Assembly: GCF_006345805.1 (NCBI RefSeq)
Contig: NC_043012.1
Span: forward strand, 57,350,001 to 57,414,000
DNA: 64,000 bases
Source of the DNA: Octopus sinensis
Taxonomy: Eukaryota
Direction: 5' to 3'
Numbering within the stretch: position 1 is the first letter of the stretch; the number at the start of each line of letters is the position of its first letter. Position numbers and translations under genes: made by a program. This document shows, piece after piece, positions 1,127 through 64,000 of this stretch. Under the pieces are notes generated by a model. That model saw nothing but the letters and a program-made list of their open reading frames with translations. It did no database searches and was not told the origin of the DNA.

Positions 1127-1128
<2 letters not shown>

Positions 1129-1162
<34 letters not shown>

Positions 1163-1525
1163 GTATCTATGTATCTATCTATCTATCAACTATCTATCTA
1201 TTTGTCTATCAGTCTATCTATCTGTCTGTCTGTCCGTCCATCCATCTATCCGTCCATCCATCCATCTATCTATGTTTTATAAATGGATATATAAGTATGT
1301 GTATATGTATGTATATATATAAATTTATATACATGCATGTATATATAAATATATAAATGTATGAATAAATATATATATGCCTATATACATATATACATAT
1401 GCATATATATGTGTATGTGTGTGTGTGTGTATGCATGCATGTATGGGTGCGTGTACACATATTATATGTATACATGCATGTATATGTATGTGTATGCATG
1501 CATGTGTGTGTGTCTGTGTGTGTGT
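1129..1525. repeat. Compound (TATC)n/(TCCA)n/(TA,TG)n microsatellite
   Basis: Directly visible. Confidence 0.9.
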
Positions 1526-1749
1526 AATTAGAAAGTTAAGTATGGCTTTAGGAAGGGCATCCAGCCATAGAAACCATGCAAAGACAAACATTGGTTCTCA
1601 ATCCAGCCCTCTGACTTGTCAAAGCTTGTCAAACTGTCCAACCCATGCCAGTATACAATATGAGGATTAAATGATGATGATAATGAATTAGAAAATATAC
1701 CAAAAAATGTTCATGAGTAAAACAATTTCCATCATCATCATCATAAGCA

Positions 1750-1771
1750 TTATAATTATTATTATTATTAC

Positions 1772-1804
<33 letters not shown>

Positions 1805-1819
1805 TTTTATTATTATTAC

Positions 1820-1859
<40 letters not shown>

Positions 1860-2165
1860 GTTATTATTATTATTATTGTTCTATGTTTGACTTTTGCTTT
1901 ACATTTGTACAAGTTGGCTCCAAGTCTCACCCAGAGACCTCAAGAGACAAGTTGGAAGTTCAATTATTATTATTATTATTATTATATTATTATTATTATT
2001 ATATTATTATTATTATATATTATTATTATATTATAATTATAATTATTATTATTATTATTATAATTATAATTATATCATTATTATTATTATTATTATTATT
2101 ATAATTATAATTATTATTATTATTATTATAATTATATTATTATTATTATTATTATAATTATAATT

Positions 2166-2210
<45 letters not shown>

Positions 2211-2216
2211 ATTATA

Positions 2217-2247
<31 letters not shown>

Positions 2248-2270
2248 GTAGTAGTAGTAGTTGTAGTAGT
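1750..2270. repeat. (ATT)n microsatellite interrupted by a LINE tail
   Basis: Directly visible. Confidence 0.9.
1880..1962 (-). mobile_element. Dong/R4-like LINE 3' terminus embedded in (ATT)n
   Basis: Reverse complement of 41945-42026 (gaacttc...gtctcttgaggtctctgggtgagact...acttgtacaaat..aaagcaa), flanked by TAA repeats. Confidence 0.65.
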
Positions 2271-2531
2271 AGCTGCAATGGTGGTAGTGGTATTCTAGTT
2301 AACAAAGCCAAATGTGCTGGGCACATCTGGAACTGTTGATGTTAAAATCTGCAAATTTTAAAGAAATTATTTATTTCTATTAAGTGTAAGCTACACCTTA
2401 TTGTTTGAATTCATTCACAATGTATTTAATAACAAGGGAGAAATGTATTTCTTTGTCCGTCTCCTTCCCCCTCAAGGGACAGATCCTGAACTCTATTCAT
2501 TGTGAAAGGAGAGATCACCAGCTTTACAAGG

Positions 2532-2700
2532 GTAATATTAGATAAGGCACCAGTGTTTGCGAATGGGCTGAAGTACTGTGACCTCTGCTTCGCAGAGAAA
2601 CTTCATATTTTGCGCCACCCTGCTTCTAATGCTAAATAAAAGAAATTAATTTATTTCGACCTGCAGGCATACACACAATTTCTTCCTCATGAATTTCAAA
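2532..2700 (+). mobile_element. Penelope-like (Naiad-type) GIY-YIG C-terminal fragment, degenerate
   Basis: Manual translation VILDKAPVFANGLKYCDLCFAEKLHIL..(frameshift)LNKRN*FISTCRHTHNFFL matches the CxLC-EK / LNKR..CRH PLE terminus. Confidence 0.75.
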
Positions 2701-2947
2701 CACAGACCCTCCTGTTGTACAATGAATAACAATTGACATCAAAGACCCTGTGATTACTTGGAAGTGCAACGAACAATTTAAGCAAGTTATTACACATTTC
2801 TTCTCAATCCATACAAGCTGACCGAAAGGCAAACTGAATGAAAGCATGGTTTAGATAATATGTAATCCTGTTTTACTTATGTGTGAATAAAGACATTAAT
2901 CAATGCATTCAAAGTTATCATTACTCATAGAAGGAGGATACATATAG

Positions 2948-3171
2948 TTAACCCCTTTGTTACCATATTTCTGATGAAATACAATGCCATTATTTCAATT
3001 AATTTTGAAAATAATGATATAACTTTGTCATTATTAAGCTGGTGCTTGGAACATAAATTAGATTGTAATTTTGACGTGAGGTTTTAATTTAGAGCACTTT
3101 GAACGAGAAGTTTGCATCATAGATAGAACCAGGGGCAGTTGCAGGTGGTTTGTTGGCATTAAAAGGATTAA
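2948..3171. mobile_element. piggyBac-like MITE
   Basis: TTAA ends; ttaacccctttg / aaaaggattaa imperfect TIRs. Confidence 0.45.
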
Positions 3172-3350
3172 GAGGTATTTGTTCTATAATCTTCGTCATC
3201 AATATAGAATTTCTTCATTGAGGTAAGATTAGAACTTTTGAATTCACTCATGCTTTAGACAGCCACTTATTTCATCAACCTATGGGAGAAGGATGAACTT
3301 TAAATTAAAATTTATGGGGTTTTGATGTCTGAACTAAATAAATGGGTGTC

Positions 3351-3509
3351 AGAGTGGCTGTGTGGTAAGTAGCTTGCTTATGAACCACATGGTTCCGGGT
3401 TCAGTCCCACTGCATGGCACCTTGGGCAAGTGTCTTCTACTATAGCCTCGGGCTGACCAAAGCCTTGTGAGTGGATTTGGTAGACGGAAACTGAAAGAAG
3501 CCCATCATA

Positions 3510-3558
<49 letters not shown>

Positions 3559-3760
3559 GTGTATCAATATGTTTGTGTGTCACTTGACAACCGATGCTGG
3601 TGTGTTTACATCCCTGTAACTTAGTGGTTCAGCAAAAGATGCCAATAGAATAAGTACTAGGCTTACAAAGAATAAGTCCTGGGGTCGATTTGCTCGACTA
3701 AAGGTGGTGCTCCAGCATGGCCACAGTCAAATGACTGAAACAAGTAAAAGATTAAAAGAG
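3351..3760 (+). mobile_element. tRNA-derived SINE family A (octopus OR-like, CORE-like ccttgggcaagt), internal microsatellite
   Basis: A-box tggctgtgtggtaag, B-box ggttcagtccc; conserved tail ending gactgaaacaagtaaaag; >15 full or partial copies in window. Confidence 0.85.
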
Positions 3761-4058
3761 TCATGTAGCAATCAAGAATTCAGAGATTTAGCAAACCATA
3801 AAAGTTTTTGTTTTTTTCTTCCATTGAAATAAAAATTAAAAAAAAACATGCAGACATGAATTGATGCAAGTATGGTTGTGGGGTTAAGATGCTTGTTTTG
3901 TAACCGTGTTGTTGTCAGGTTCAGTCCCACTTCATGGCATCTTAGGCAAGTGTCTACTACTATACCCAAGCCAACCAATGCCTTGTGAATGAATTTGGTA
4001 AATGGAAACTGTGTGGAAGGCCATGATATATATTTGTGTGTGTATATGTATACAGGTA

Positions 4059-4570
4059 CAGGGTGGGCCAAAATTAGTAGCCCAAGTTGAATTTTTGGAA
4101 ATTGAATGATTTCGTAGGTGCTGATTGAGGAAGTTTCTTACACGTTTGTCATAATGAGAAGCTGTTCCATCTTGCACAAAGATTTTGGAATGATGGTATC
4201 AAAAACACAGCCAGATGATGTTTTCACACAACGCCAGGTAACGATCACCATTCATCGTCTCTCATTGAATATGGAATGCACAAATTCCTGAAGATGATAT
4301 CGCGACCCAAATGACAAAAGAAGGTGAATTGACATGCTTTTCTCAAACCACTTCAGGGTCGTCTTCTGAATAATAGAAGCAGTTATTGCGGTTGATGTGA
4401 TTGGAAAATGAGTCGGTCAAAAAACCTGGAAGCTCTGGCTTCTGCCAGAATTCTCTCACAAAATTCAATTTGTCGAATAATCAATGACATATAGAAATAA
4501 TATCAGTATGCATCAAGAAACTACAGAAATAATAGACACATATAACTGGGACACTAATTTTGGCCCACCC
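4059..4570 (-). mobile_element. Tc1/mariner (maT-like) internally deleted DNA transposon
   Basis: TIRs gggtgggccaaaattagt..ccc at both ends; minus-strand remnants INRNNCFYYSEDDP, MNGDRYL and QDGTASHYDKRVRNFLNQH. Confidence 0.8.
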
Positions 4571-4616
4571 ACTCTCTCCTCTATATATATATACATACAT
4601 ATGCATATACATATAC

Positions 4617-4687
<71 letters not shown>

Positions 4688-4689
<2 letters not shown>

Positions 4690-4967
4690 GAGGTACATGG
4701 CCTAGTGGTTAGAGCAGCAGACTCGCGGTCGAGGGATCACAGGTTTGAATCTCAGACCAGGCGATGTGTGTGTTTATGAGCGAAACACCTAAGCTCCATG
4801 TGGCTCTGGCAGAAGGTAATGGCGAACTTCTGCTGACTTTTTCGCCACAACTTTCTGCATTTTGCAGCTCACCTGCGACAGACTGGTGTCCCGTCCAGGC
4901 GGGGAACCTATACACCAAGGAAACTGGGAAACCGGCCCTTCTGAGCCAGGCATGGCTCAAGTAGGAA
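4688..4967 (+). mobile_element. tRNA-derived SINE family C
   Basis: tggcctagtggttagagc head, ggtttgaatc B-box; related to copies at 8667, 11757, 16324, 27808. Confidence 0.7.
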
Positions 4968-5100
4968 CAAACAATATGTATATATACACACATATATACA
5001 TATATATATAAGTGTTTATGTATGTATGTAAAGATTGACAAAATGCTGCTAAGCATTTTCCAGGCATGTTAACGATTCTGTCAGCTCGCTGCCTAAATAG

Positions 5101-5313
5101 TCTTTTCTATTCTAGGCACAAGGCCTGAAATTTTTAGGGAGGGGCTAGTTAATTAGATCAACCCCAGTATGCAACTAGTACTTAATTTATTGACCCCGAA
5201 AGGATGAAAGGCAAAGCTGACTTCAGCAGAATTTGAACTCAGAACATAAAGACAGACGAAATACCGCTAAGCATTTCATCTGGTGTGCTAACGTTTCTGC
5301 TAGCTCACTGCCT
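5101..5313 (-). mobile_element. tRNA-derived SINE family B (central domain resembles Meta/MESC SINE domain, from memory)
   Basis: gactttgcctttcatcctttcggggtcaataaattaagtac core on minus strand; several copies. Confidence 0.75.
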
Positions 5314-5544
5314 TCCATTGCATGTAAAAATTAACCAGTGTTTCAAATAGATTAAGAAGGGAGTAAAAAAGGTTAGCATCAGGAGGGGGGAATTTTGGCT
5401 GTAAATCATTTCCTTGAAAATCCTTGTCCAAGCCATGCCAGGAGAGCAAAGGAGTGAATGTAAACATTTTTGGGATGATGATATGGGATAGTTTTGATGA
5501 AAGGAAATGACGTCATAGGAAAACACGACAGAAAAATTTACAAT

Positions 5545-5895
5545 GTTGACTGGAAAAAGTCACAATGTTGTTTAGGAACAGCAATTTTGGTAAGAAGAAA
5601 AAATCACAATTTTGGTTAGGGAAAACAATTTTCGCAAGAAGGGAAGTTACAATTCTGGTTAGAAAGATCAATTTTGGCAAGAAGAAAAGTCACAATTTTG
5701 GTTAGGAAAAACAATTGTGGCAAGAAGAAAAGTTACAATTTATGCCATGAAAATGTGACAATTTTTGCTAGGAAAATACCACAATTTTGGCGAGAAGAAA
5801 ACTCATAATTTTAGCGAGGAAAACATCACAATTTTGGTGAGAAAAAAGTGACAATTTTGGGTAAGAAAAAGTCACAATAATGACTAGAAAAAAGT
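5545..5895. repeat. Minisatellite, ~19-20 bp subunit (caattttgg/aagaaaaagtca)
   Basis: Repeated acaattttgg..aagaagaaaa motif, about 17 degenerate units. Confidence 0.75.
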
Positions 5896-14321: not shown

Positions 14322-14690
14322 AGTTACTTATATAAATTTTCATTAAAGACTATTTGCCAACATAATGTGGCAGTCATGGATGGAATGAATGTTGGGAAAT
14401 AATCTTTACTTTAAAGTATTGTTACTGAATCTCTCTCTTTGAGAGATTTTGAAATAATAATGCTTCTATAAATTTTCATCTTTATCACTGATAGTATGTG
14501 AAAAATACAAAGAATTTCCTTTTTTACATCAAAAGGAATTAGGCAGATCTTGAGAAAATATATAAAATTGTTTATGATTAAGAAATTCTAAGTCAAATGA
14601 ATGTACAACATACTTTAAGACTCTTTTAGAATCTTGCAAATTTACTCACTCACTCTCTCCAATGTTGGTCTGATTCACTATATACATATA

Positions 14691-15136
14691 GGCGTAGGAG
14701 TGGCTGTGTGGTAAGTAGCTTGCTTACCAACCACATGGTTCCGGGTTCAATCCCACTGTGTGGCACCTTGGGCAAGTGTCTTCTACTATAGCTTCGGGCC
14801 GACCAAAGCCTTGTGAGTGGATTTGGTAGACGGAAACTGAAAGAAGTCCGTCGTATATATGTATATGTATGTGTGTGTGTGTGTGGTGTGTGTATGTGTG
14901 TGTGTGTTTGTGTGAGTGTGTTTGTCCTCTCCCTCACCCCAACATCGCTTGACAACCGATGCTGGTGTGTTTACATCCCTGTGACTTTGCAGTTCGGCAA
15001 AAGAGACCGATTAGAATAGGTACTAGGCTTACAAAGAATAAGTCCTGGGGTCGATTTCCTCGACTAAAGGCAGTGCTCCAGCATGGCCGCAGTCAAATGA
15101 CTGAAACAAGTAAAAGAGTAAAAGAGAGTAAAAGAG
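14691..15136 (+). mobile_element. SINE family A, full length
   Basis: Head, internal (TA/TG)n, tail ending in aaagagta repeats. Confidence 0.9.
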
Positions 15137-17704: not shown

Positions 17705-18065
17705 ATTTACTATTTTACTATTTTACTTGTTCCAGTCATTTGACTGTGGCCATGCTGGAGCACCGCCTTTAGTCGAGTAAATCGACCCCAGGACTTATTC
17801 TATCGGTCTCTTTTGCCGAACTGCTAGGTTACGGCGACGTAAACACCAGCATCGGTTGTCAAGCGATGTTGGGGGGGACAAACACAGACACACATATACA
17901 TACATACATATATATATACATATATACATGTATACGACGGGCTTTCAGTTTCCGTCTACCAAATCCACTCACAAGGCTTTGGTCAGTCCGAGGCTATAGC
18001 AGAAGACACTTGCCCAAGTTGCCACGCAGTAGGACTGAACCCGTAACCATGTGGTTGGTAAGCAA
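17705..18065 (-). mobile_element. SINE family A
   Basis: Reverse complement of the family consensus. Confidence 0.85.
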
Positions 18066-18567
18066 GCTCAGGGTACCACGTAGTGTGACTGAACCCGGAA
18101 CGATGCAGTTGGGAAGCCAGCTTCTTACCACATAGCCACGCCTGCACACTCTGAAGACAATAGTTTGGAGTGATTTCAGAGATATTTAGCTGCTATTACT
18201 AGCATGTTGAGTAACTAACGGCTTAGGAGTTTGCTCTTGTTGACATAAATAACTGTGGGTGCGGACTTTGGGATAAGATAGGGATCAAAGTAGGAATGGT
18301 ATGCGTGAGGTGGGTGGGGTGAAGATGTTGGGGATGATGTCGGGGTGGGGATGGTGGGGGCGGTGGTGGTGGTGCTGCTGCTGCTGCTGGGGAATATGTT
18401 CAGAAATCTAAATTCTGTTAGGAGGCAATAAATAGGAACTGGATGATGTTTTTTCAAAACATTTTTACTCCTTCAAATAAAGTGTGTGTATGTGTATGTG
18501 CGTGTATGTGGTGTGTGTGTGTGAATGCTTGTGTGTGTGTGGTGTGTGTGTGTGTGTGTGTGTGTGT

Positions 18568-20136: not shown

Positions 20137-20306
20137 AGGCTTAGGAGTGGCTGAGTTGTAAGTAGCTTGCTTACCAACCACATGGTTCTGGGTTCAATCC
20201 CACTGTGTGGCACCTTGGATAAGTGTCTTCTACTATAGCCTCGGGCCAACCAAAGCCTTGTGAGTGGATTTGGTAGACAGAAACTGAAAGAAGCCCGTCG
20301 TATATA

Positions 20307-20354
<48 letters not shown>

Positions 20355-20561
20355 TGTGTGTCTGTGTTTGTTCCCCCAACATCGCTTGACAACCGATGCT
20401 GATGTGTTTACGTCCCCGTAACTTAGTGGTTCGGCAAAAGAGACCGATAGAATAAGTACTAGGCTTACAAAGAACAAGTTCTGGGGTTGATTTGCTTGAC
20501 TAAAGGCAGTGCTCCAGCATAGCCAGAATCAAATGACTGAAACAAGTAAAAGAGTAAAAGA
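20137..20561 (+). mobile_element. SINE family A, full length
   Basis: Matches other family A copies. Confidence 0.9.
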
Positions 20562-30908: not shown

Positions 30909-31171
30909 ATGAAAGTATCCAAAGAGCATTTAAGGCACATAATGTTTTATGAGTTCAAAAAACAGAAACTCTGCAGCTGAAGCAACTCGAAACATACACT
31001 CAGTTTATGGGAAAGAATGCTTGAAGGAAAGAACTTGCAGAAGATGGTTTGCAAAATTCAGAAGTGAAGATTTTAGCCTTAAACATGAAAATCGAACAGG
31101 ACGTCCAGTTGAGTTTGATGATAAGCTCCTTGAGGCATTACTTGAAGAAAATCCTGCATTATCAGTTGAAG
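30909..31171 (+). pseudogene. mariner transposase N-terminal HTH fragment (frameshifted, truncated)
   Basis: MKVSKEHLRHIM..(frameshift)NSAAEATRNIHSVYGKECLKERTCRRWFAKFRSEDFSLKHENRTGRPVEFDDKLLEALLEENP, typical Mos1/Hsmar1-like HTH with GRP motif. Confidence 0.85.
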
Positions 31172-31227
31172 AATCTATATGTGTGTGTGTGTGTATAACA
31201 GGAGTTAGGGAATAGAGTAGAAAAGAC

Positions 31228-31752: not shown

Positions 31753-31865
31753 CATGGCTACCAAATAATTGTCACATATTATATTTACAGATATATATCT
31801 ATATATGTATGTATATATATGTATACCTATGTATGTATATATATATATATAAAATATATATATAT

Positions 31866-32505
31866 ATACTACAAAATTAGAGAATGGAGAAACATACTTA
31901 AATCAATAAAACATCAACTATCCGATGATACCCAATCAATACTTTAATACACCATTACATATGAGTAAAGGCATTATACAAAATGAGATATACAGTAATA
32001 GTAAAAAGATAAAGAGATATAAGTAAAAAATTTCAAATATAATATGCAATTAAATCAAAACTGACAGCTGTTTCGGCAGTGAGGGCAGTCATACCTCATT
32101 TAACCTCTAAGCCATAAAGGCAGGTATAATGAGGCATTAACAAGGATGCCCCACGGCCTCTTCAGAGAATTAAATTAAATTTGTTATAATTGTGAAAATA
32201 TATATATAACCATACATATAAATATAAAAATATATAAAAATGTAAAATATAAAAAACTTATACATCATAATGCTACACCAATATATATAATACTCATTGG
32301 TACAATAAGGAAGGTAAACAGAACAAAATAAAACAAAATATATATCAGTGTATATATTAATATTAATAAGTACCGATATATACATATTTGGCTAATAGTT
32401 TTTTTTAAAAAACTAACACATAGGGAGATGAAAAATAATAATTAAAACCATGGTTCAGTTCATAAAATTCTAAAGCTATGAAAGTTAATAAAAATTACTA
32501 TTAAT

Positions 32506-32557
<52 letters not shown>

Positions 32558-34423
32558 GATACAGTTAAGTTTGCACCAAGTCCATCCTTTCAAGATCGAA
32601 ATAACTATGAGTTTAGAAATGCTGACCACTAGGTAAAGAAAATTTAGATTAATTCGATTGGCTATTGGTTTGAAATTTAAATCACAAAAGAAAATTATAC
32701 GGTTGGTTAGTCAAGGAACGCCAATATTCACACACGCATCTACAGATCAATCGCACATACACACATAGTTATATGTATATACATACACTTATACACATAC
32801 ATAATCACAAGCAACAACTAGCACATAGATAAACAAAAAGGGAAGCAACTATGCTACCATTTAGCCTTCAAAATTATAACTGTGCCTCAAATAACGAAAA
32901 AAGAACCACCCATGCATTTCATAAAATATTTAATTTAGATATAAATATATTTTTAAATATCAGTATGTTACTAAGTCAGATAATTATTTCATGGGTAACT
33001 TAAAATTTTAACACCGGTTTGTTGCATAGTAAACATACGGTTGTTAGATTTATCGTGAGTTTGTTATGATTCCAAGTACGCTAAATTATAAAATATAAAA
33101 TATATATTAATTTATATATTATAAATAAATCACTATTTACTTAATAAATTAATGCCATAATATACCAGTTTAGGCATTAAAAAATAGAAGGGGAAGTACT
33201 AATGTAAACGCTTATGAGAACATCACAGAAATTTTAAAAAATTTATATTATAAATACTTAAGATAAAATGTGATAAGATAAATAAGAAGGAATAAATACG
33301 AAGGAATAAATACGGTTATACACATATTATAAGTACAAACCAGTATATATGTATTCATATATTATTAAAATTAAATAAAAATAAATGATAGATATGTATG
33401 TATAAAACTACCCTAGTATAAGTAAATAAGTAAAAAATAAAATAGATAACAAATAGATGACTTGATATGTATGTAAACATCTACACTTAAATAGGCAAAT
33501 AAATAAATAATTAGAAGACTAAATGCAGAGAGATGATAACATTACATAAAATAAAATAAAAATAAATAAAGTGAATATATATGTTATATTGTTGAAAGTA
33601 AATATGTATGGAAGGAGTAATTTAAAGTACAGATCCAGAGGACTATAGATATAAACTAAATATATAAGGCTGGGTAATATTATAAAGCCAAATGTATGTA
33701 AATGAGAAAATGAAAAAAATGAAAAAGGTTTATTAGTAGTAGCATAAGATACAAATTAAGGTGAGTACAAAGAAAGACCAAATATACAATAAAAACCTTC
33801 CAAATAAAACATACAAAAAACCTATATTCTCAACCTAAACACACCAAACTCATAAAAGGCTCTCATATATTACATATTATACAATATCATTACATTATCT
33901 AGAGCTAGGTATCTAACAAGATATACATATATACTATGCAATATACTATGCAATATTAGAAAACTTCAAAAATCACATATTACAAGGCAAATACCAAAAT
34001 GAATATGTTATTTCGTGTCATATTGCATTTCACTTAAAAAACAAACAAAAACCCACATACAAAAAACAAGAAACAAATAATACTAGACACATCTATTATT
34101 ATTATACAAATGTAGCTATAAAAAATTATAAATTATAAATTTATAAGTTGTATACTTAAGAATTATAGAAGACCACAGGTATAGTTAGTTAAAGAAGGGA
34201 GTTAAAAAATTAATAATAGTGAAGTGCTAAGTTCTATTTGAATCTAGAAATGGTGAACGGTAGCCTATGAATGCAAGAAAGGTTTTTTCATTAATGTTGT
34301 TAATAATTGCCGACCCGCTTTAATAATGAAAAAAATTTCATTAATACATAGAGAGCATTTTTTATTTTTCCATTATACACAGGTGCTGAAGTTAGTATTT
34401 CCAGTTTAACTAAAATCTAAGTT
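31866..34423 (-). repeat. Left arm of inverted repeat (ORF end plus ~2.4-kb 3' UTR/pLTR)
   Basis: Reverse complement of 36294-38867; differences mostly 1-nt indels and (AAT)n length. Confidence 0.95.
32059..32168 (-). ncRNA. Type I hammerhead with long stem II (left pLTR copy)
   Basis: Reverse complement of 38566-38675. Confidence 0.75.
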
Positions 34424-36293
34424 CTTACTTTTAAGTTCCCAAATGTATGCACTTAGCCCTGTAGAGTACATTCTATTTTTATTTCTAAAAGTATATCTGT
34501 GATAATTCAATCTTTGTTTTATGCTATTCATAGTTGCCCCGATATACACCCTACTACTCAATTGTGTATCTACAGTGTATTGGTAAACTACCTCCTTCCT
34601 GAGGCAATGATTACCAAATACACATTTATTTTTGTTTCTGAAATTACAAAGATTAACAGAATGAGGAAATCTAAGATTGGTCTCCACCCCTATACTACCA
34701 TTCACATTATAAGTGTTACAATTGTTATCATCATCCAAACCCAAAATCAACGAATGAGTTAATTTCACATTATCGGCTATATTCCTATCACTAGTACTAG
34801 TATTGGTAGTAGTAGTATGATCTATTACATTTATATTATCTCTGATAGGTACGGTGCACTCATTATTAGTAAGGGGGTTGTTCACATTCGTTCCAAGAAA
34901 GTTTCTGTTCCTATATTATTAAAGAGGGGCAAATTTCCCTGGTCTAAATTCAATTTCTATCCTTATAGAAGTGATCCAGTTTCCTGTTATTAAAAGAGGA
35001 GATAATGGTGGCTAGATTATGAGTAATGCTATATCCCACTCTAACAGTACTGTTGTTAATTAAAGGACTAAATTTATTCTTATCCTTACAAAATGCCTAA
35101 ATATAACATTATGCAAAGCTCTCACTATGTTTGTTTTAATCTGCATTGCATATGGGATAATCAACCATAGTGTATCCTTATCAGAATTAGGATTGCCTAT
35201 AGAATTATTGTTATTTGTAAAAATCCTATTCCTAGACCAACCCATAGGATTACTATTCTTACCACTGTCATTGTTATATCTATCATATCAATATTCCCAT
35301 GGTTATTGCGCAAGTAAACTTTACCATTATCATGTCTACCATAAGTTTTAATTTGTATATTATTATTAATATTACTACTATTACCCGTATGCTCAGATCT
35401 ATTTGAGCTACCGTTCACCTTCCGAGGTTAACATCACTTCTACATTTATTATAGGTGTTATCATATATTCTATTTTACTATTCTTATGTATATTGTTGCT
35501 ATCCTAAATCTGGTGTTGTTCCTGATAGTTCTACCTCCATTAGGAGGGTTCCCCTTAGGTATAAACCATATCTTACTTTTGTATCCTGCCTGAAGCAATG
35601 CTGCATTGTATCTATCACAATGCTTGTTAAAAATTTCCTCGTTAGAGGATAAACTAGAAATTCTGACTAATGCTACGCACTAGTGCATTTTTAATTTGAG
35701 GGGGGTTTGATTACTTGAACGGTTAATATATTAGGTTAATTAGGTTTAATATAGGGTTCATGTAAACCATTAGTAATGTTACAATTAACATCTAAATAAT
35801 TAGCAGAATAATTTTCACTTTCAATGATAATGGATAGGCCGAAACTTTTAAAAAATTTATTTATTCTTTTTTTCAGAAGATCTAATCTCCTATTTGATGT
35901 ATTCTTAACACAAAATAAGGCGTCATCCCTGTATAATCCACCTTTTAATTCAGGGAATTCCCTACTAAAGTTATCTAATAGATACATCCCAACTAGATCA
36001 GTCACCTCCGCCGAGTCCGGCGATCCCATTGTGATATCGAACAAGTTGGGTGTGTCCTTTCTAGCCAAAGTTTATTACAAACTCTATTAAAGTTTTCCTG
36101 GCTGTTAGTATAACCTTAATCTCCCCCATACTTAATTAGTGGTATTTTCTAGCAAAAATTAAGGACTTATTTAATATAATAGGGTTAATGGAAGTGTAAT
36201 AATTCTGTATATCAAATGGATAAATTTATTTCTATTATAGCTAAAGTTGTTACTGTCACAGACCTTAATGGCAGAAAACCAATCCAAAGCACC
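34234..36293 (-). pseudogene. PLE RT-thumb-GIY-YIG ORF, frameshifted and 5'-truncated
   Basis: LDWF..I, FDIQNYYTSI, RKTL, FDITMGSPDSAEVTDLVGMYLL, GLYRDD, NYLDV, YINRSSN.PP, CNFRNKNKCVFGNHCL, VVYQ..VYIGAT..KQRLNYH, STGLSAYIWELK, CSLCINE, CIH. Confidence 0.9.
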
Positions 36294-38157
36294 AACTTAG
36301 ATTTTAGATTAAACTGGAAAAATACTAACTTCAGCACCTGTGTATAATGGAAAAAATAAAAAATGCTCTCTATGTATTAATGAAATTTTTTTCATTATTA
36401 AAGCGGGTCGGCAAATTATAAAAACATTAATGAAAAAACTTCTTTTGCATTCATAGGCTACCGTTCACCTTTCTAGATTCAAATAGAACTTAGCACTTCC
36501 ACTATTATTAATTTTTTAACTCCCTTCTTTAACTAACTATACCTGTGGTCTTCTATAATTCTTAAGTATACAACTTATAAATTTATAATTTTATAATTTT
36601 TATAGCTACATTTGTATAATAATAATAGATGTGTCTAGTATTATTTGTTTCTTGTTTTTGTATGTGGGTTTTTGTTTGTTTTTTAAGTGAAATGCAATAT
36701 GACACGAAATAACATATTCATTTTGGTATTTGCCTTGTAATATGTGATTTTGAAAGTTTTCTAATATTGCATAGTATATTGCATAGTATATACGTATATC
36801 TTGGTTAGATACCTAGCTCTAGATAATGTAATGATATTGTATAATATGTAATATATGAGAGCCTTTATGAGTTTGGTGTGTTGTTGTGGTTTAGGTGAGA
36901 ATATAGGTTTTTTGTATGTGTTTATTTGGAAGGTTTTATTGTATATTTGGTCTTTCTTTGTACTCACCTTAATTTGTATCTTATGCTACTTACTAATAAA
37001 CCTTTTCATTTTTTCATTTTCTCATTTACATACATTTGGCTTTATAAATATTACCAGCCTTATATATTTAGTTTATATCTATAGTCCTCTGGATCTGTAC
37101 TTTAAATTATCCTTCCATACATATTTACTTTCAACAATATAAACAATATATTCACTTTATTTATTTTTTATTTTATTTTATTGTAATGTTATCAATCTCT
37201 GCATTTAGTCTTCTAATTATTATTTATTTGCCTATTTAAGTGTAGATGTTACATACATATCAAGTCATCTAATTTGTTATCTATTTATTTTTTACTTATT
37301 TACTATACTAGGGTAGTTTTATACATACATATCTATCATTTATTTTTATTTAATTTTAATAATATATGAATACATATATACTGGTTGGTACTTATAATAT
37401 GTGTATAACCGTATTTATTCTTCGTATTTATTCCTTCTTATTTATCTTATCACATTTTATCTTAAGTATTATAATATAAATTTTTTTAAAATTTCTGTGA
37501 TGTTCTCATAAGCGTTTACATTAGTACTTCCCCTTCTATTTTTTAATGCCTAAACTGGTATATTATGGCATTAAATTTATTAAGTAAATAAGTGATTTAT
37601 TTATAATATAAATTAATATATATTTTATATTTTATAATTTAGCGTACTTGGAATCATAACAAACTCACGATAAATCTAACAACCGTATGTTTACTATGCA
37701 ACAAACCGGTGTTATAAATTTTAAGTTACCATGAAATAATTATCTGACTTAGTAACATACTGATATTTAAAATATATTTATATCTAAATTAAATATTTTA
37801 TGAAATGCATGGGTGGTTCTTTTTCGTTATTTGAGGCACATTATAATTTTGAAGGACTAAATGGTAGCATAGTTGCTTCCCTTTTTGTTTATCTATGTGC
37901 TAGTTGTTGCTTGTGATTATGTATGTGTATAAGTGTATGTATATACATATAACTATGTGTGTATGTGCGATTGATCTGTAGATGCGTGTGTGAATATTGG
38001 CGTTCCTTGACTAACCAACCGTATAATTTTCTTTTGTGATTTAAATTTCAAACCAATAGCCAATCGAATTAATCTAAATTTTCTTTACCTAGTGGTCAGC
38101 ATTTCTAAACTCATAGTTATTCGATCTTGAAAGGATGGACTTGGTGCAAACTTAACT

Positions 38158-38211
<54 letters not shown>

Positions 38212-39040
38212 TATTATTATTATTAATATAATAGTAATTTTTATTAACTTTCATAGCTTTAGAATTTTATGAACTGAACCATGGTTTTAATTATTATTTT
38301 TCATCTCCCTATGTTGTTAGTTTTTTAAAAAAAACTATTAGCCAAATATGTATAATATCGGTACTTATTAATATTAATATATACACTGATATATATTTTG
38401 TTTTATTTGTTCTGTTTACCTTCCTTTATTGTACCAATGAGTATTATATTATATAAGTGTAGCATTATGATGTATAAGTTTTTATATTTTACATTTTTAT
38501 ATTTTTATATTTATATGTATATGGTTATATAATATTTTTCACAATTATAACAAATTAATTTAATTCTCTGAAGAGGCCGTGGGGCATCCTTGTTAATGCC
38601 TCATTTATACCTGCCTTTATGGCGCTTAGAGGTTAAATGAGGTATGACTGCCCTCACTGCCGAAACAGCTGTCAGTTTTGATTAATTGCATATTATATTT
38701 GAAATTTTTTACTTATATCTCTTTATCTTTTACTATTACTGTATATCTCATTTGTATAATGCCTTTACTCATATGTAATGGTGTATTAAGTATTGATTGG
38801 GTATCATCGGATAGTTGATGTTTTCATTGATTTAAGTATGTTTCTCCATTCTCTAATTTTGTAGTATTAATTTACGGTAATATTATTACCTTTACCCATA
38901 TAATACAATAGATGAACTGATTGTTTGACAATTTTTAACATCTATGTATTAATCTTGTTGGGTACCTATCTGGCAGTATATTGGATATATATTATCCCAT
39001 GGTGGGTTGAATTTTCAACCCCTATCTCATTTTATAACCT
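36294..39040 (+). repeat. Right arm of inverted repeat (second 3' copy; ~170 bp longer, ends in (TA)n)
   Basis: Starts aacttagattttag..ttaaactggaaa at the RT truncation point; pairs with the left arm up to 38867. Confidence 0.95.
38566..38675 (+). ncRNA. Type I hammerhead with ~87-nt stem II (right pLTR copy)
   Basis: cu-CUGAAGA-GGCcGUGGGGCA...AUGCCUCAUUUA...UAAAUGAGGUAU..UGCCCUCACuGCC-GAAAC AGCU GUC^AG. Confidence 0.78.
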
Positions 39041-41532
39041 ATATATATATATATATATACTCTTCTCTGGTCTGAGTGGAAAGAATAACTAGTATCATGA
39101 GTAGAAGAATGACTCATAGAACATCGTTGGTATGGACAACAGAATAGCAACAATATTGCAAGTAGTATTCAGTGGAAAGTTCATGCCAGACAGGGATGGG
39201 CTTAGAGAAGCTGAGAGGCCAGGTTTGTATCACAATGTGTTACCATGGGAAAGTTCCTACAAGATGAGGAGGTGACTTATAGATGTAAGAGATCTGACTT
39301 CTACCGCAATGTGTTTTCAATAAATGCTATATTTTTAGTGGAATTCCTAAGTTTGGTTAAGTTTGTGTGTCATAGTGAGGTGATGGTGGTGAGAGGGAAG
39401 AGAGGAATCTAATGTCTTGGGATTGAGAGGGAATAAAAAAATTGCTTTTCAACTTGAAGAATTTTCTTCTTCTCTCATCTGAAAGTTCAATTCAAAAATC
39501 TCAGATTCCTCTTTTCCCAAAGGTGTACAAACCTACCAAAAGTTATGAACTTCATCCATTTAATTTTTACCAATGCAAACCACGATCAATTCGTAAACCA
39601 ATAGGGAGGTTATGATTTGGCTGCATGATTTGCTAAAAATAGCATCTGAATTTTTCCCAGATTACGTTCCACTGACTTAGAAAAAAAAAATAAATAAAAA
39701 GACACATTGAATGGTGTAGTGTTGAGATCGCTGTGTAGGAATAACACAGGATGGTCATGGACAGAATACTTTTGATAATAGATCTGCTCAATTAGGGTTG
39801 ACCCAGAGCTAAACAATAACAAAAGCAACAATATATGTATATTCATGCATATTCATGCTTTACATTGGAACCTAAATGTGGCTGCCTGACGTGTTAGAAA
39901 TAGCAGCTCAATCTGCCGCCAATCACATCACACTGTCTTGAAAAGGTCACTTAGGATAATGTAAGTCTAGATTGTCTGCATTAAAATTTGAAACAAATAT
40001 TATCATCCTCTTCATGTGTACAGGTAAAATACCTGTACAGAGCCTTTTTTTGTGGTATGAAGAGTTTATCTCTTCTGGATCTTTGCTGAGGTATGCTAGC
40101 CCTGGTTTTAGATCAAGACGTGTTTCTTGGCATCTTCACTGCTGACCCTAAATGAAGGCGCTAATGCTGAGTTAAAGAACCATTTTCAGAGGAAGATTTA
40201 CCATATATATCACAATGATATGACCTCTCTCTTTTAAGACTGTGTACATAAGTAGTTTATATACCACTCTGAGAGAATAACAACTGTAGGATGTTATTTA
40301 CTTCTGTGAAAGGGACAAACACAAAAGTAATCTCTAAATTTTTCTTTGCTGACCCCAAGAAGGGTTTTGGCAGAGGATCACACTCCAGGATCTGGTAAAC
40401 ACTGAGAAATTTAAGGGTAAATGAACGAGTTATGGGGGCTGTTTCAAAACCCATATACAAGATGTTTATAACCAAAGTAAGGAATGGTATAAAATTTGGA
40501 ATGATGATACATGAATAAGCAATGTATAAGGTTGGTTGTAGTGCAAAATGAGAAGAAAAAAGTTTATTAATTCTTGGCATTATGGATAGAGGGAAAAAAA
40601 ATGGGCGTAAATTTAATGAGGGTTATGATGATGGTGATAATGATGAAGATGATGATGATGATGATGTGATGATGACGACGACGACGGCGACGATGACGAT
40701 GACGACGATGATGAAGATAGTGATGTAATCAAAGCACACTTCCGAAAACGGTCCTGATGTAGATGCTGATATGAAGGTTTGACATTCAAATATTGCTGCT
40801 CCAAATATTAAAAGAATTTGTAATTAAAAAAAAAAAGGAGTGGGGGGGGAGATAAAAAAATATATAAAATAAAATTATGTAAATCTAAACAAAAGCTAAA
40901 ATCTGAATCTGAAAATGTTAAAATGAAATATCTGTGACTAAGAAAATAAAAATAGCTGAAATTCTCACTGGAATTAAAGTTTCTTGTTACACAGAATTCT
41001 GAAAGAGTGTTTGTTACTTTTGATTTTAAATTTATTATCAAACAGTGGGATAAAAAAAAAAAAAAGAAAAGAAAGAAAATACCCCAAAAAAGTAAATGTA
41101 ATCTTTTACTTTCTGCTACATTGTATTTGTCATGGTACCAGTCATATAACGGTGCCATTTTAATTCACAGCATACTCAGTGACACTGCTAGTTTTACTTA
41201 ATAACGTTTGTTTCACATCCATTTTTCCATGCCAGTATGGATCAGATGAATACATTATTGAGGCATTGTTTCTCTAGCCAGACACCTTATCTGACATTAA
41301 CTCCTGCTTTCTTTCCAAGTAAGGGACCACATATTCCACACAGCCCTTGAAGGTACGAAGTGAGTGAATGATTTGTTGACAGGAGAAGCAGGCAACAACA
41401 TCGTGCATGCAGCACTTTTTACACAAGCGATTGCAGGTGTAAAGAAGCACACACTCTAGTGAATTACAGGTGTTTATATCATATCTCAGCCTTAAGAGTA
41501 ACTTATGAGCGACTCCCTCTTCCTTATTAATA

Positions 41533-43656: not shown

Positions 43657-44109
43657 AAATATAATGCGTACGCACATAAATGTATGCATCTCTGATATGA
43701 AAAAGTTTTGTTTACCTTGAATGCTTAAGATTATGTTGTGAAATAAAGACAACATTCCAATTAGTAAAACGTCCAATGGTCTTCAAGTGTGACAAATACA
43801 GGAACCGCAGGGTGAAGAAATTCAGGAATGAAAAAGAGAAAAAAAGAAAAAACGGAATGAAACAACGGCAAAACAAAGGCTAAGATCACACGAGATATAA
43901 TATATAATATGTAAGAATTTTAAATGATGAAGAAGATAAGCAGATGAATACATGTTCATGTGTGTATGTGTGTGTGTGATCATTTGATGTTTGTTTTCCA
44001 TGCAAGCATGGGTTAGAAGATTTTGCAGGAGTTGGCTAATCAGAAGATTGAACGAAGCTCTGCTGTGTCTGCTTCAGCATGGTTTCTATCACTGGATACA
44101 CTTCCTAAT

Positions 44110-44322
44110 GACAAACACAGACACACAAACACACACGCATATATATACATATACATATATACGACGGGCTTCTTTCAGTTTCCGTCTACCATATCTACTC
44201 ACAAGGCTTTGATTGGGCCGAGGCTATAGTAGAAGACACTTGCCCAAGGTGCCATGCAGTGGGACTGAACCTGGGAACATGTGGTTGGTAAGCAAGCTAC
44301 TTACCACACAGCCACTCCTGCA
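44110..44322 (-). mobile_element. SINE family A (head half)
   Basis: Matches the family consensus. Confidence 0.8.
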
Positions 44323-45106
44323 CCTTGTTTTGTTTTACCTTCATGTTTTGATAATGTTATTTTTAATCTAATAAAGGCTAATAAATGTGTTTGTTGTTGA
44401 TTATATAGTAAGATAAAATCATAGTGATAACAATACATCTCAGTTGTAAAATAAAGCATTTTGAAACTACATACACATGAACAACAAAAAAAGCTAGCTG
44501 TGGGCCCTATTTGAGAGGAATCGCATATAATTTGCACTTTTAGATGATGGTATAAAACCTCTTAATATATTGGAGACGGGGTAATTAACTCAGGTGAGTA
44601 ATTATCCCAAGGAGGTAATAGTCCTGATACAATCACTGATACATGTTAATGATAATCTTCAGTCAATGTAAGATAATAGGAAATATTTATGAAGGTACAA
44701 CAATTCTTTAAGATAAATATTGGGATCAGTCTCATACAATAACCAAATAAAAAATGAAAACTTTCATTCTATTGATGCAGTATTGAGTACTTCTCTTTCT
44801 TTAGTTCAATATACCAATGCATATGGATGCATGTGCATGGGAGTATAAGACACAAACACATGCCTTATTTTCTAGATACAAACATGAGACATGTATAAGA
44901 ATTCCCTCATGCATGCACAGTATGAAACACACACAGAGCTAAATGTATATGTATACACACATACACACTATTTAATAATCGTACACATACACACACACAC
45001 ACACATATTACATATATATATACACATATACATATATATATATGCGTACATATACAAACACACACACACATATATACATATGTACATATATATATATGTA
45101 TATATA

Positions 45107-49494: not shown

Positions 49495-49902
49495 GGCACA
49501 GGAGTGGCTGTGTGGTAAGTAGCTTGCTTACCAACCACATGGTTCCGGGTTCAGTCCCACTGCATGGCACCTTGGGCAAGTGTCTTCTACTATAACCTCG
49601 GGCCGACCAAAGCCTTGTGAGTGGATTTGGTAGATGAAAACTGAAAGAAGCCCGTCGTATATATGTATATATATACATGTGTGTGTGTGTGTGTATACGT
49701 TTGTGTGTCTTTGTCCTCCAACGTCGCTTGACAACTGATGGTGGTGTATTTACGTCCCCGTAACTTAGCAGTTCGGCAAAAGAGACCGATAGAATAAGTA
49801 CTAGGCTTCCAAAAGATGTCCTGGGGTTGATTTGATTGACTAAAGGCGGTGCTCCAGCATGGCCACAGTCAAATTACTGAAACAAGTAAATGAGTAAAGA
49901 GA
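49495..49902 (+). mobile_element. SINE family A, full length
   Basis: Matches the family consensus. Confidence 0.9.
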
Positions 49903-57114: not shown

Positions 57115-57333
57115 TACTCTTTACTCTTTTACTTGTTTCAGTCATTTGACTGCGGCCATGCTGGAGCACCGCCTTTAGTCGAGCAAATCGACCCCAGGAC
57201 TTATTCTTTGTAAACCCAGTACTTATTCTATCGGTCTCTTTTGCCGAACCGCTAAGTGACAGGGATGTAAACACACCAGCATCAGTTGTCAAGCAATGCT
57301 CGGGGGACAAACACAGACACACAAACACACACA

Positions 57334-57388
<55 letters not shown>

Positions 57389-57570
57389 TATATATACACA
57401 CATATATACAACAGGCTTCTTTCAGTTTCCATCTACCAAATCCACTCACAAGGCATTGGTCGGCCCGGGGCTATAGCAGAAGACACTTGCCCAAGATGCG
57501 ACGCAGTGGGACTGAACCTGCGACCATGTGGTTGGTTAGCAAGCTACTTACCACACAGCCACTCCTGCAG
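57115..57570 (-). mobile_element. SINE family A, full length
   Basis: Matches the family consensus. Confidence 0.9.
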
Positions 57571-58235: not shown

Positions 58236-58862
58236 ATGTGTGTGTGGGTGGATGTGAGTGTTAGTTCACCACCAAGCATCCCTGCAACTTGGTGGTTCTG
58301 CAAAAGAGGTCAAAAGAATAAGTATTAAGATTAAAAAAATAAATATTGGGGTTGATTTGTTTTACTAAACCGTTTAAGGTGTGCTCCAGCATGGACACAG
58401 TCCATGTCTGAAACAAGTAAAAGATTTTAAGATTTTATATATACATGATATATATAATATTTATATATATATATATATTATATATATATAATATATATAT
58501 ATGTATACATACATATTCTTTTATTTGTTTCAGTCATTGGACTGTAGCCATGCTGGGGCACATCCTTTAGTCGAACAAATTGACCTCAGGCCTTATTCTT
58601 TATAAGCCTAGTACTTATTCTATTAGACTCATTTGCCGAACAAGCGATGTTGTGGGGACAAACATATATACACAAACATATATAGATATATATATATACA
58701 CACACCATGGGCTTCTTTCAGTTTCCTTCTACCAAATCCACTCACAAGTCTTTGATCAGCCTGAGGCTATAGTAGAAGACACTCACCCAAGGTGCCACGC
58801 AGTGGAACTGAAACTAGAACCATGTGGTTGGGAAGCAAGCTACTAACCACACAGCCACTCCT
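57955..58862. mobile_element. Two SINE family A copies, tail-to-tail (57955-58425 +; 58517-58862 -)
   Basis: Match the family consensus; separated by (TA)n. Confidence 0.75.
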
Positions 58863-59683: not shown

Positions 59684-59742
<59 letters not shown>

Positions 59743-59760
59743 TATATGTATGTATATATA

Positions 59761-60100
59761 CACACATGCTCATACATAAACACACTTCTGTAGATGTATA
59801 ATCAATATCATAAGGCAATGTAAAGGTGATATCGTACAGAAGAAATGATGTATGACACACCATATAATGAGGATAATAGAAAATGTCATATCAAAGCAAC
59901 TTCCAAATAGGTTAACTGTGAGCTTTTGTGTTGCAAAAATTTGTATATATATATGTATATATATATATATATATACGCTGTAATGTATACATAATATGGA
60001 GACACTTGTTTTGCATATAAAAGCATCAGGATAAATATTTGTCCATATATATGTCTACATAGATATACATACATACATATTTATATCTATCTATCTATAT

Positions 60101-60148
<48 letters not shown>

Positions 60149-60530
60149 ATATTATATATATACATATATATAATGTGTATATATATATATATATACACAC
60201 ATGCTCATACATAAACACACTTCTGTAGATGTATAATCAATATCATAAGGCAATGTAAAGGTGATATCGTACAGAAGAAATGATGTATGACACACCATAT
60301 AATGAGGATAATAGAAAATGTCATATCAAAGCAACTTCCAAATAGGTTAACTGTGAGCTTTTGTGTTGCAAAAATTTGTATATATATATGTATATATATA
60401 TATATATATATACGCTGTAATGTATACATAATATGGAGACACTTGTTTTGCATATAAAAGCATCAGGATAAATATTTGTCCATATATATGTCTACATAGA
60501 TATACATACATACATATTTATATCTATATA
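59761..60530. repeat. Near-perfect tandem duplication (~330-bp unique unit, ~435-bp period) bounded by (TA)n
   Basis: cacacatgctcatacataaacacacttctgtagatg...tatttatatctat at 59761 and 60196. Confidence 0.9.
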
Positions 60531-61403
60531 TATATATATATATATACGTACATACATAAGAGTGTGTATATAGAATATATGCGTGTGTGTGTGTGTGTGT
60601 GAGCATGAGTGTTTGTGCTTGTGTATGTCGAACACGACAAATTCCGTTTGATCTAATCTGAGGCATTGAGGCGTAATACCACAAAGTGCTCAATACATGA
60701 ATTAACAATAAATTACGATATTTAGAACTGCGACATTAGTCCCCATGATAAATATGGAGTGATGTTAAGCAACTAAGAAAAAAAAAAATTTATTGCATGG
60801 AACATACGCATGAAAATACCAATTTATAATATATATGTCCGTACATGTATGTAAATATGTCCATACACACATATAGATATATATATGTTGTTCACGTCTT
60901 TGTTCATTTTTACAGCCGTTTTTCCATAGAAGCGTTGGTTACAAGTATCATCATTAGATTCGTTTAATGTCTCCACTTTTCAATGCTTGCATGTGTCAGA
61001 CAGAATTTGCTGTGGTAAATTTTTTTCTTGTTTGTGTTTGTTTTTTACAGCTGGATGCTCTTCCTGTCTGTAACCCTCAACTGTTCCGAAGTAAGTAGAT
61101 ACTTTCCTTTTGGCTAGACATGTTTGTTTGCACAGAAGACTGGAATTGAAGGACAATAGCGGCATGTTGGTGAAACATGTTTTACACCTATTACACAATA
61201 TCAAGACAAGGTGACAAATGTACACATACATACATACATACATACATATAAATATATATAATATATATATATAATATATATATTATATATATATATATAT
61301 ATATATGTATAAATGCACACACACACACACATATTAAATTAATAATCACACATATATAGTTATTTTGAGGGAGAAAGTCAAAACAGGACTTATATATATA
61401 TAT

Positions 61404-63504: not shown

Positions 63505-63704
63505 TACTCTTTACTCTTTTACTGTTTCAGTCACTTGACTGCGGCCATGCTGGAGCACCGCCTTTAATCGAGCAACTTGACCCCGGAACTTATTCTTTTG
63601 TAAGCCCAGTACTTATTCTATCGGTCTCTTTTGCCGAACCACTAAGTAACGGGGACATAAACACACCAGCATCAGTTGTCAAGCAATGTTAGGGGACAAA
63701 CACA

Positions 63705-63752
<48 letters not shown>

Positions 63753-63902
63753 TACGATGGGCCTCTTTCAGTTTCCGTCTACCAAATTCACTCACAAGGC
63801 TTTGGTCGGCCCGAGGCTATAGTAGAAGACACTTGCCCAAGGTGCCACGCAGCGGGACTGAACCCGGAACCATGTGGTTGGTAGACAAGCTACTTACCAC
63901 AC
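63505..63902 (-). mobile_element. SINE family A, full length
   Basis: Matches the family consensus. Confidence 0.9.
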
Positions 63903-64000
63903 AAGCCCTGATATTTAGCAACTGACTCGGTAGACATCCAGAATATTATCTACCATCTTTCCAACAACAAAATTCGGATATCTTTTAGAATTCCTTATGT

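What the first reader, a model, noticed from the sequence alone, without database searches (positions are those of the whole stretch)
31866..39040. Naiad-like Penelope retroelement with 2.56-kb inverted pseudo-LTRs between (TA)n tracts
Seen: the minus-strand RT-GIY-YIG ORF is cut at 36293 and joined directly to an inverted copy of its own 3' end (36294-39040). Both 3' ends face outward into TA microsatellite, and the right copy is ~170 bp longer. Known: PLEs form direct or inverted pLTRs and carry hammerheads; the FDxTMGS..AE/GLYRDD and CNxR..C..CL motifs fit the C-terminal-endonuclease Naiad-like group. Inference: two reverse-transcription events primed on opposite strands of a TA tract. The ~2.4-kb 3' UTR is unusually long.
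Basis: partly seen in the sequence, partly recalled or inferred. Interest (0 to 1): 0.75.

Follow-up and report, generated by a model that had tools for sequence, protein, structure and literature searches.

The report
Hydra-clade Penelope with paired copying starts
This is a real, truncated, two-armed copy of a young Penelope-like jumping gene (Hydra group, not Naiad), and across the genome such copies nearly always have one short-ended and one long-ended arm, which likely means that each cut DNA strand starts copying the same RNA at its own fixed site.

Summary
The inverted structure is real: arms 34423-31866 (-) and 36294-38867 (+), a 1.87-kb unmirrored spacer, a 173-nt extension on the right arm only, and (TA)n on both sides. 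The clade call is wrong. Naiads have an N-terminal endonuclease and no canonical hammerhead. This family has the Hydra-clade features (C-terminal GIY-YIG, RWR, DKT, CxCx5C, no CCHH, hammerhead), but the unit is 5.6 kb against about 3 kb or less for the listed Hydra elements. Copies with a full 947-aa ORF exist elsewhere in G000; the window copy is 5'-truncated and frameshifted. Copies end at two fixed sites, short (S) and long (L), 173 nt apart and sharing a motif. Inverted insertions pair one S with one L: 22 of 22 chosen by RT and 67 of 70 chosen by one end, never S+S or L+L. Arms of one insertion are nearly identical and often truncated at the same point. Best reading (inferred): both nicked target strands prime cDNA on one RNA, one at each site, then join head to head. 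The layout and two start sites are published; earlier scan notes reached a similar reading on other DNA. No read spanned the junction.

The parts
31776..31865 (.). Left target: TA-rich microsatellite
31866..36293 (-). Short-ended (S) arm, 4428 nt; unit positions 901-5430 of the 5.6-kb unit in L026
34234..36293 (-). 5'-truncated RT / Asn-rich linker / GIY-YIG coding remnant (from about residue 255 of 947), with 21 frameshifting indels against L026
34424..36293 (-). Unmirrored 1.87-kb spacer (part of the S arm absent from the L arm)
31866..34233 (-). 3' UTR of the S arm, 2.37 kb
32063..32165 (-). Type I hammerhead motif of the S arm (cleavage not tested)
36293..36294 (.). Head-to-head junction, blunt, no microhomology
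   Evidence: no listed contig piece bridged it
36294..39040 (+). Long-ended (L) arm, 2747 nt; unit positions 2788-5600 (last ~190 nt of ORF, 3' UTR, tail)
38053..38132 (+). Two CCAAT words followed by the zone where 5' ends of short copies cluster (unit 4610-4660); possible RNA start, inferred
38568..38673 (+). Type I hammerhead motif: CUGAAGA core, ~85-nt stem II, palindromic minimal stem III, GUC site, weak stem I (cleavage not tested)
38857..38874 (+). S-site motif TTTTRTA-N5-AATTTA, also present across the L end / 5' UTR joint in tandem copies
38868..39040 (+). 173-nt tail between the S and L ends, present on one arm only
39041..39060 (.). Right target: (TA)10, followed by single-copy flank

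Best explanation
This is a 5'-truncated, two-armed insertion of a young Hydra-clade Penelope-like retrotransposon in a TA microsatellite, likely made when both nicked target strands primed reverse transcription on the same element RNA, one at the short site and one at the long site 173 nt apart, after which the two cDNAs were likely joined head to head. Shown: clade motifs, copy structure, two fixed ends, strict S+L pairing, near-identity of paired arms, a shared motif at both sites. Taken from PAc in vitro work (PMC11167929): both strands are nicked and extended, and RT starts at two internal RNA sites that bound the tail. Inferred: one RNA for both arms, one protomer of a dimer per site, and joining by a jump onto the other cDNA's 3' end or by end joining. 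The window copy is most likely inert; the protein would have come from a full-length copy such as those in L026 and L029.
For: (1) Intact 947-aa ORFs in L026 and L029 carry the Hydra motifs; the top structural matches of the model are telomerase RTs (pLDDT 75.5). (2) Ends fall at two places: 132 exact S+TA and 178 exact L+TA matches in G000, 0 for reversed controls. (3) Of 38 distinct RT-selected loci, 23 are inverted; 22 show both ends and all 22 are S+L, two of them fetched afterwards as a test. Of 100 loci anchored on one end, 70 are inverted: 67 S+L, 0 S+S, 0 L+L, 3 with a partner ending elsewhere. (4) Substitution distance within a pair has median 0.3% against 3.1% between insertions, lower in 35 of 35 testable pairs (32 of 67 had too little overlap); one search shows the same trend, the window pair being 2 of 678. 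(5) In 16 of 44 eligible pairs both arms stop within 15 nt of each other (permutation mean 1.2, maximum 7), as expected if both ran off one RNA end. (6) Either arm can reach further upstream (S 29, L 22 of 67), so neither is always a fold-back copy of the other. (7) S and L share 20 of 31 nt, matched by 0 of 2176 other positions. The tail is 89-92% conserved between subfamilies against about 75% for bulk 3' UTR. (8) Sister Hydra families at about 56% amino-acid identity also show two ends about 110-120 nt apart, with one of each in the three inverted pairs seen.
Against: No biochemistry and no raw RNA reads. One RNA cannot be told from two RNAs of the same source element in the 28 of 44 pairs with different 5' ends. 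Copying one RNA twice needs strand displacement, which is untested. In vitro, PAc showed no difference in start site between strands (PMC11167929), though that does not test pairing within one event. Of the 100 anchored loci, 30 show no mapped second arm (three of these have a tiny inverted stub by eye) and 3 have a partner ending at neither site. One of the 16 coincident pairs (L159) lies at a masked microsatellite. The 31-nt motif window was chosen after seeing the alignment; wider windows are weaker (29 of 65; 122 and 30 of 2176 as good). Junction microhomology in the 12 of 31 junctions that could be scored was no more than random (mean 0.92 against 0.85). Near-identity of arms could be inflated by gene conversion or cross-polishing in the assembly. 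Two tandem copies (L026, L039) extend upstream of the proposed RNA start, which needs longer, circular or switched templates.
Confidence: 0.68

Rival explanations
1. Same twin priming, but on two RNA molecules from one source element, one read from S and the other from L.
For: Explains S+L pairing, near-identical arms and long overlapping arms without strand displacement.
Against: Does not readily explain 16 of 44 pairs stopping within 15 nt of each other at scattered positions.
Confidence: 0.18
2. One priming followed by fold-back or self-priming (cDNA snap-back, or self-priming on an antisense template as proposed in PMC3846280) makes the second arm.
For: 16 of 44 eligible pairs have near-palindromic centres; published as the reading of head-to-head palindromes.
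Against: Snap-back of an L-primed cDNA cannot give an S arm that reaches further upstream (29 of 67, and the window itself: 901 against 2788). An S-primed cDNA does not contain the tail. It may still account for some of the palindromic cases.
Confidence: 0.08
3. Two independent insertions at one TA tract, later homogenised by gene conversion.
For: TA tracts are hot targets; nested and neighbouring insertions occur (L052, L058).
Against: There is no TA between the arms. Independent events would give S+S and L+L about half of the time; 0 of 92 were seen.
Confidence: 0.03
4. Fold-back assembly artefact from long reads.
For: Arm differences are mostly 1-nt homopolymer indels, and no contig piece was listed across the junction.
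Against: The spacer of 1.87 kb and the flanks are not mirrored, and the tail is on one arm only. The same S+L layout occurs at 89 loci, the window included, with different junctions. An artefact cannot add the family's tail to one arm.
Confidence: 0.03

Closest known systems
Hydra clade of C-terminal EN+ Penelope-like elements, incl. Hydra-1_Obim (2507 bp; protein run 709 characters) (Craig et al. 2021, PMC8557442)
   Same: Single ORF with RT then GIY-YIG; RW(K/R), DKT, FD.TMGS / GLYRDD, CxCx5C linker, CxxC and CxH around the conserved E and N, no CCHH, no IFD; type I hammerhead near the 3' end; (TA)n targets.
   Different: Unit 5.6 kb against 1.1-3.0 kb in their table; 947 aa with two disordered Asn-rich inserts (residues 505-629, 26% N; 711-805, 21% N); 2.6-kb 3' UTR; hammerhead stem II about 85 nt; tail 173 nt. 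By eye it is a different family from Hydra-1_Obim (no alignment to the published sequence was run).
PLE insertion unit with inverted 5'-truncated pLTR and one-sided tail (PMC8557442 Fig. 2; PMC3846280)
   Same: Partial tandems, inverted 5'-truncated copy, tail on one end only.
   Different: Published tails are 30-40 bp; here 173 nt (about 110-120 nt in sister families). The papers say 'often' or 'optionally'; here the pairing is counted, 89 of 92 S+L and none S+S or L+L.
PAc (Poseidon of Anolis) in vitro mechanism (Frangieh et al. 2024, PMC11167929)
   Same: Two RT start sites bounding the tail; both target strands nicked and extended; AT-rich target; hammerhead nearby.
   Different: Different clade. 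PAc sites are adjacent and lie inside the ORF start; here they are 173 nt apart, upstream of the ORF, and are degenerate repeats of each other. Pairing of sites within one insertion was not addressed in the parts read.
Naiad clade (PMC8557442)
   Same: PLE RT, TA targets, inverted and tandem insertion layout.
   Different: Naiads have an N-terminal EN, CxC linker, DKA, IFD, CCHH and no canonical hammerhead; none of this fits.
Twin priming of LINE-1 (recalled; no paper read)
   Same: Both target strands prime cDNA on one RNA, giving an inversion.
   Different: In L1 the second site is variable and the segments barely overlap; here both sites are fixed and the arms overlap for up to kilobases.
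Asn-rich inserts in Adineta vaga Penelope ORFs (PMC3846280)
   Same: Long in-frame Asn-rich linker between RT and EN.
   Different: Another clade and host; the inserts here are shorter and split in two.

Membership tests
Penelope-like elements (EN+) | Telomerase-related RT with GIY-YIG EN in one ORF | tested here: met
   947-aa ORF; best Foldseek hits are TERTs; VYQC..YIG at 829-845. The protein itself has no significant Pfam hit; 3 of 25 aligned relatives hit RVT_1 and 3 of 25 hit GIY-YIG.
Penelope-like elements (EN+) | Partial tandem / inverted pLTRs with one-sided tail | tested here: met
Hydra clade | C-terminal EN, no N-terminal CxC, no IFD | tested here: met
   EN at residues 809-947; RT3 (281) to RT4 (344) spacing is 63 aa, as in the Hydra rows by eye
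Hydra clade | RWK present, GxKF/Y absent, DKG changed to DKT | tested here: met
   RWR at 37, DKT at 138, no GxK[FY], no DK[GA]
Hydra clade | CCHH absent; linker CxCx5C; CxxC and CxH flanking E and N | tested here: met
   CNCRNKNKC 809, CSLC 907, CIH 935; the second Cys is Phe in the window and many copies
Hydra clade | Canonical hammerhead near the 3' end; (TA)n insertion | tested here: met
   Motif and fold z = -3.8; missed by Rfam; ends abut TA. Cleavage untested.
Hydra clade | Generally short, under 3 kb | tested here: not met
   Unit 5.6 kb. The paper gives this as a tendency, not a diagnostic.
Hydra clade | Groups with Hydra references in an RT phylogeny | not tested
   Named reference proteins were seen only in the paper's supplement and were compared by eye; no tree was built.
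Naiad clade | N-terminal GIY-YIG EN with CCHH | tested here: not met
   EN is C-terminal and lacks CCHH
Naiad clade | CxC linker, DKA, IFD | tested here: not met
Naiad clade | No canonical hammerhead | tested here: not met
   Hammerhead motif in each arm
Penelope/Poseidon, Neptune, Nematis | DKG motif and CCHH in the EN | tested here: not met

The most novel reading that the evidence does not exclude
The PLE tail is the spacer between two duplicated RNA start signals that a dimeric RT-endonuclease reads on one RNA, one signal per nicked target strand, so every two-armed insertion gets one short and one long end. This long-tailed Hydra subgroup (tails of about 110-173 nt, family-specific repeats at both sites) shows the rule in readable form and would settle how PLEs build their inverted insertions.
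Probability: 0.4. Interest if true: 0.68.

Novelty: new variant of a known kind. Interest (0 to 1): 0.47.

Why it matters
How Penelope-like elements, the closest relatives of telomerase, build inverted and tandem insertions is still open: the one in vitro study stops at first-strand initiation, and an earlier paper proposed antisense self-priming. A young family with full-length ORFs, hundreds of readable ends, a 173-nt tail and a strict one-short, one-long rule gives a direct genomic constraint and a ready substrate for a barcoded-RNA assay. It also roughly doubles the size range listed for the Hydra clade. The window copy itself is an ordinary dead insertion.

Tried and rejected
Naiad assignment: rejected on domain order and motifs. 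Rfam found no hammerhead, only TA-repeat miRNA noise; the motif was found by pattern. Pfam gave nothing for the window fragments and nothing significant for the full ORF; the PDB sequence search gave only E 0.14. Junction test: contigs of four public runs (X1-X4) gave no joint and no listed piece across 36293/36294, with most pieces not shown; inconclusive. Empty-site test: in X1, X2, X3 and X6 one contig each covers the right flank and none could be followed through the TA tract; inconclusive. No RNA holder listed. Hammerhead cut as the RNA 5' end: no cluster of 5' ends at unit 5220-5240 (3 of 100 insertions). Stalling of the L-primed cDNA at S: not evident. Junction microhomology: no excess in 12 scorable of 31 junctions. 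Hammerhead covariation is slight, 1 of 37 pairs with a two-sided change among 12 related copies. The bulged ACTC/GAGT hairpin of earlier scan notes is not clear here; the fold of the S-L region is not unusual (z -1.5). The S/L comparison used a wrong index and was redone; the identity profile and motif listing stand. The dimer was not modelled, so that step rests on the PAc prediction only. Literature searches found no paper on this family or on strict S+L pairing; subscription journals, Repbase and bioRxiv supplements were not searchable.
Full report
Observation. The window holds an inverted repeat whose arms are 34423-31866 on the minus strand and 36294-38867 on the plus strand: 2539 matches, 20 mismatches, 97 gap columns. 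The stretch 34424-36293 is not mirrored, the right arm continues 173 nt to 39040, and both outer ends meet (TA)n. The junction is blunt. Most arm differences are 1-nt gaps (57 of 66 events, 46 in homopolymers). The coding remnant has 21 frameshifting indels against an intact copy at 96.8% substitution identity. I infer unpolished long-read errors, but cannot exclude real decay.

Family. The window is G000:C16:57350001-57414000; the host was not determined. The RT piece gave 40 scored matches from 474 candidates, and the 3' end 40 from 2722; these are not copy numbers. L026 and L029 hold 960-codon stop-to-stop frames, 947 aa from the Met in L026. The unit in L026 is 5.6 kb: 138-nt 5' UTR, ORF at unit (u) 139-2982, 2.6-kb 3' UTR, hammerhead GUC at u5227, short end S near u5430, long end L at u5600. 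In tandem copies L runs straight into u1 with no TA (10 exact matches). The model (25-sequence alignment; pLDDT 75.5, pTM 0.74) has ordered RT and EN and two disordered Asn-rich inserts, and its best structural matches are telomerase RTs. Among the 24 relatives aligned from the best 150 hits, lengths are 696-911 aa.

Clade. From Craig et al. 2021 (PMC8557442) I read the abstract, passages, text parts 1, 2 and 4 of 9, and supplement parts 1, 2, 7 and 58 of 59. Naiads have an N-terminal EN, CxC, DKA, IFD and no canonical hammerhead. Hydra elements have a C-terminal EN, RWK, DKT, CxCx5C, no CCHH, CxxC and CxH, a hammerhead and TA targets. The L026 protein has RWR, DKT, CxCx5C, CSLC and CIH, and lacks GxK[FY] and DK[GA]. 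It is a Hydra-type element, not a Naiad. No tree with named references was built. The listed Hydra elements are 1.1-3.0 kb, so this family is about twice as long.

Hammerhead. Rfam missed it. A pattern search found one core in the unit, at 38568-38673 and 32165-32063 in the window: CUGAAGA, an ~85-nt stem II, a palindromic minimal stem III and a weak stem I. The region folds at z -3.8 and -3.4 and is 93-96% conserved between subfamilies. Covariation is slight and cleavage is untested.

Two ends, always one of each. Exact patterns give 132 S+TA and 178 L+TA ends, and 0 for reversed controls. The 40 RT hits are 38 distinct loci: 15 single-orientation, 1 inverted with an end off the contig, and 22 inverted with both ends seen, all S+L. 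Two of the 22 were fetched afterwards as a test and both fitted. I then took 60 of the 100 listed S ends and 40 of the 100 listed L ends, leaving out loci already held. Of these 100, 70 are inverted: 67 S+L, none S+S or L+L, and 3 with a partner ending elsewhere; 30 have no mapped second arm. An artefact or two independent insertions would not give this.

Same template. Within-pair substitution distance has median 0.3% against 3.1% between insertions, lower in 35 of 35 pairs with enough overlap; an earlier set of 30 pairs shows the same trend. In 16 of 44 eligible pairs both arms stop within 15 nt of each other, against a permutation mean of 1.2 and maximum of 7; one of the 16 sits at a masked repeat. 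The S arm reaches further upstream in 29 pairs and the L arm in 22, so a fold-back of one cDNA cannot be the general route.

Start signal. S and L are degenerate repeats of each other: 20 of 31 nt, with none of 2176 other positions as good. That window was picked after inspection and wider ones are weaker. The motif TTTTRTA-N5-AATTTA occurs only at S and L in the L026 stretch examined and persists in a divergent subfamily. The tail is 89-92% conserved where bulk 3' UTR is about 75%. Sister Hydra families at about 56% identity have ends about 37 and 155 nt behind the hammerhead site, one of each in three inverted pairs, and by eye their own repeat at both ends. I looked for a shared signal because of earlier scan notes.

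Mechanism. Frangieh et al. 2024 (PMC11167929; parts 1-2 of 4 read) showed that PAc nicks and extends both target strands and starts at two internal RNA sites that bound the tail, with a predicted dimer. Arkhipova et al. 2013 (PMC3846280; passages and Discussion) proposed antisense self-priming for head-to-head palindromes and described Asn-rich inserts. The counts here favour twin priming on one RNA, one strand at S and one at L, then head-to-head joining (0.68). Two RNAs from one source is the main rival (0.18). The single RNA, the dimer and the joining step are inferred. 5' ends cluster at u4610-4660 (10 of 100 insertions, against 13 in the preceding 410 nt) just behind two CCAAT words, which may mark the RNA start. 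Two tandem copies extend beyond it, which is unexplained.

Limits. No contig was seen across this junction or the empty site, and no RNA holder was listed. Five literature searches found no account of this family or of strict S+L pairing; bioRxiv 10.64898/2026.07.22.740005 was seen as abstract and outline only. Earlier scan notes reached similar readings on other DNA; none matched this family's RT by sequence. Verdict: a real insertion of known layout, from a new long variant of the Hydra clade, with a useful mechanistic constraint.

Noticed in passing
window 30943-31212 (+): Mariner (Mos1-type) transposase fragment, Pfam HTH_48 E 5e-14, cut off by a TG/TA repeat 0.7 kb left of the element.
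   Followed up: partly
L222-L232 (e.g. G000:C17:13316500-13326499, C11:54578500-54588499): Several further long Hydra families at about 56% amino-acid identity, with open frames up to 1124 codons, hammerheads with extended stem II, and tails of about 110-120 nt.
   Followed up: partly
L058:2453-3493 (+): Decayed fragment of another Hydra family that by eye resembles the published Hydra-1_Obim linker; 26% identical over 62 aa to this family.
   Followed up: partly
L044/L045 (G000:C15:16397108-16417107): A whole inverted insertion is repeated in tandem with a 5.7-kb period: local duplication or assembly duplication.
   Followed up: no
L048:4405-4593: Inverted arm made of the tail alone, with a 15-nt unit repeated three times at the junction, suggesting slippage during joining.
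   Followed up: no
L130:7279-7727: Short copy that reads tail, u1-205, then jumps to u5329-S: an internal deletion or template switch.
   Followed up: no
window 34640-34670 (-): The second Cys of the CxCx5C linker is Phe in the window and many young copies and Cys in others.
   Followed up: no
window 3345-3562, 14690-14885, 17942-18068, 20152-20558, 44107-44325, 49499-49712, 57120-57566, 58658-58862, 63696-63912: A ~200-nt dispersed repeat in both orientations, often ending in (TA)n; looks like a SINE-type family.
   Followed up: no
window 59685-60546: Two tandem copies of a 435-nt unit at 97% identity.
   Followed up: no
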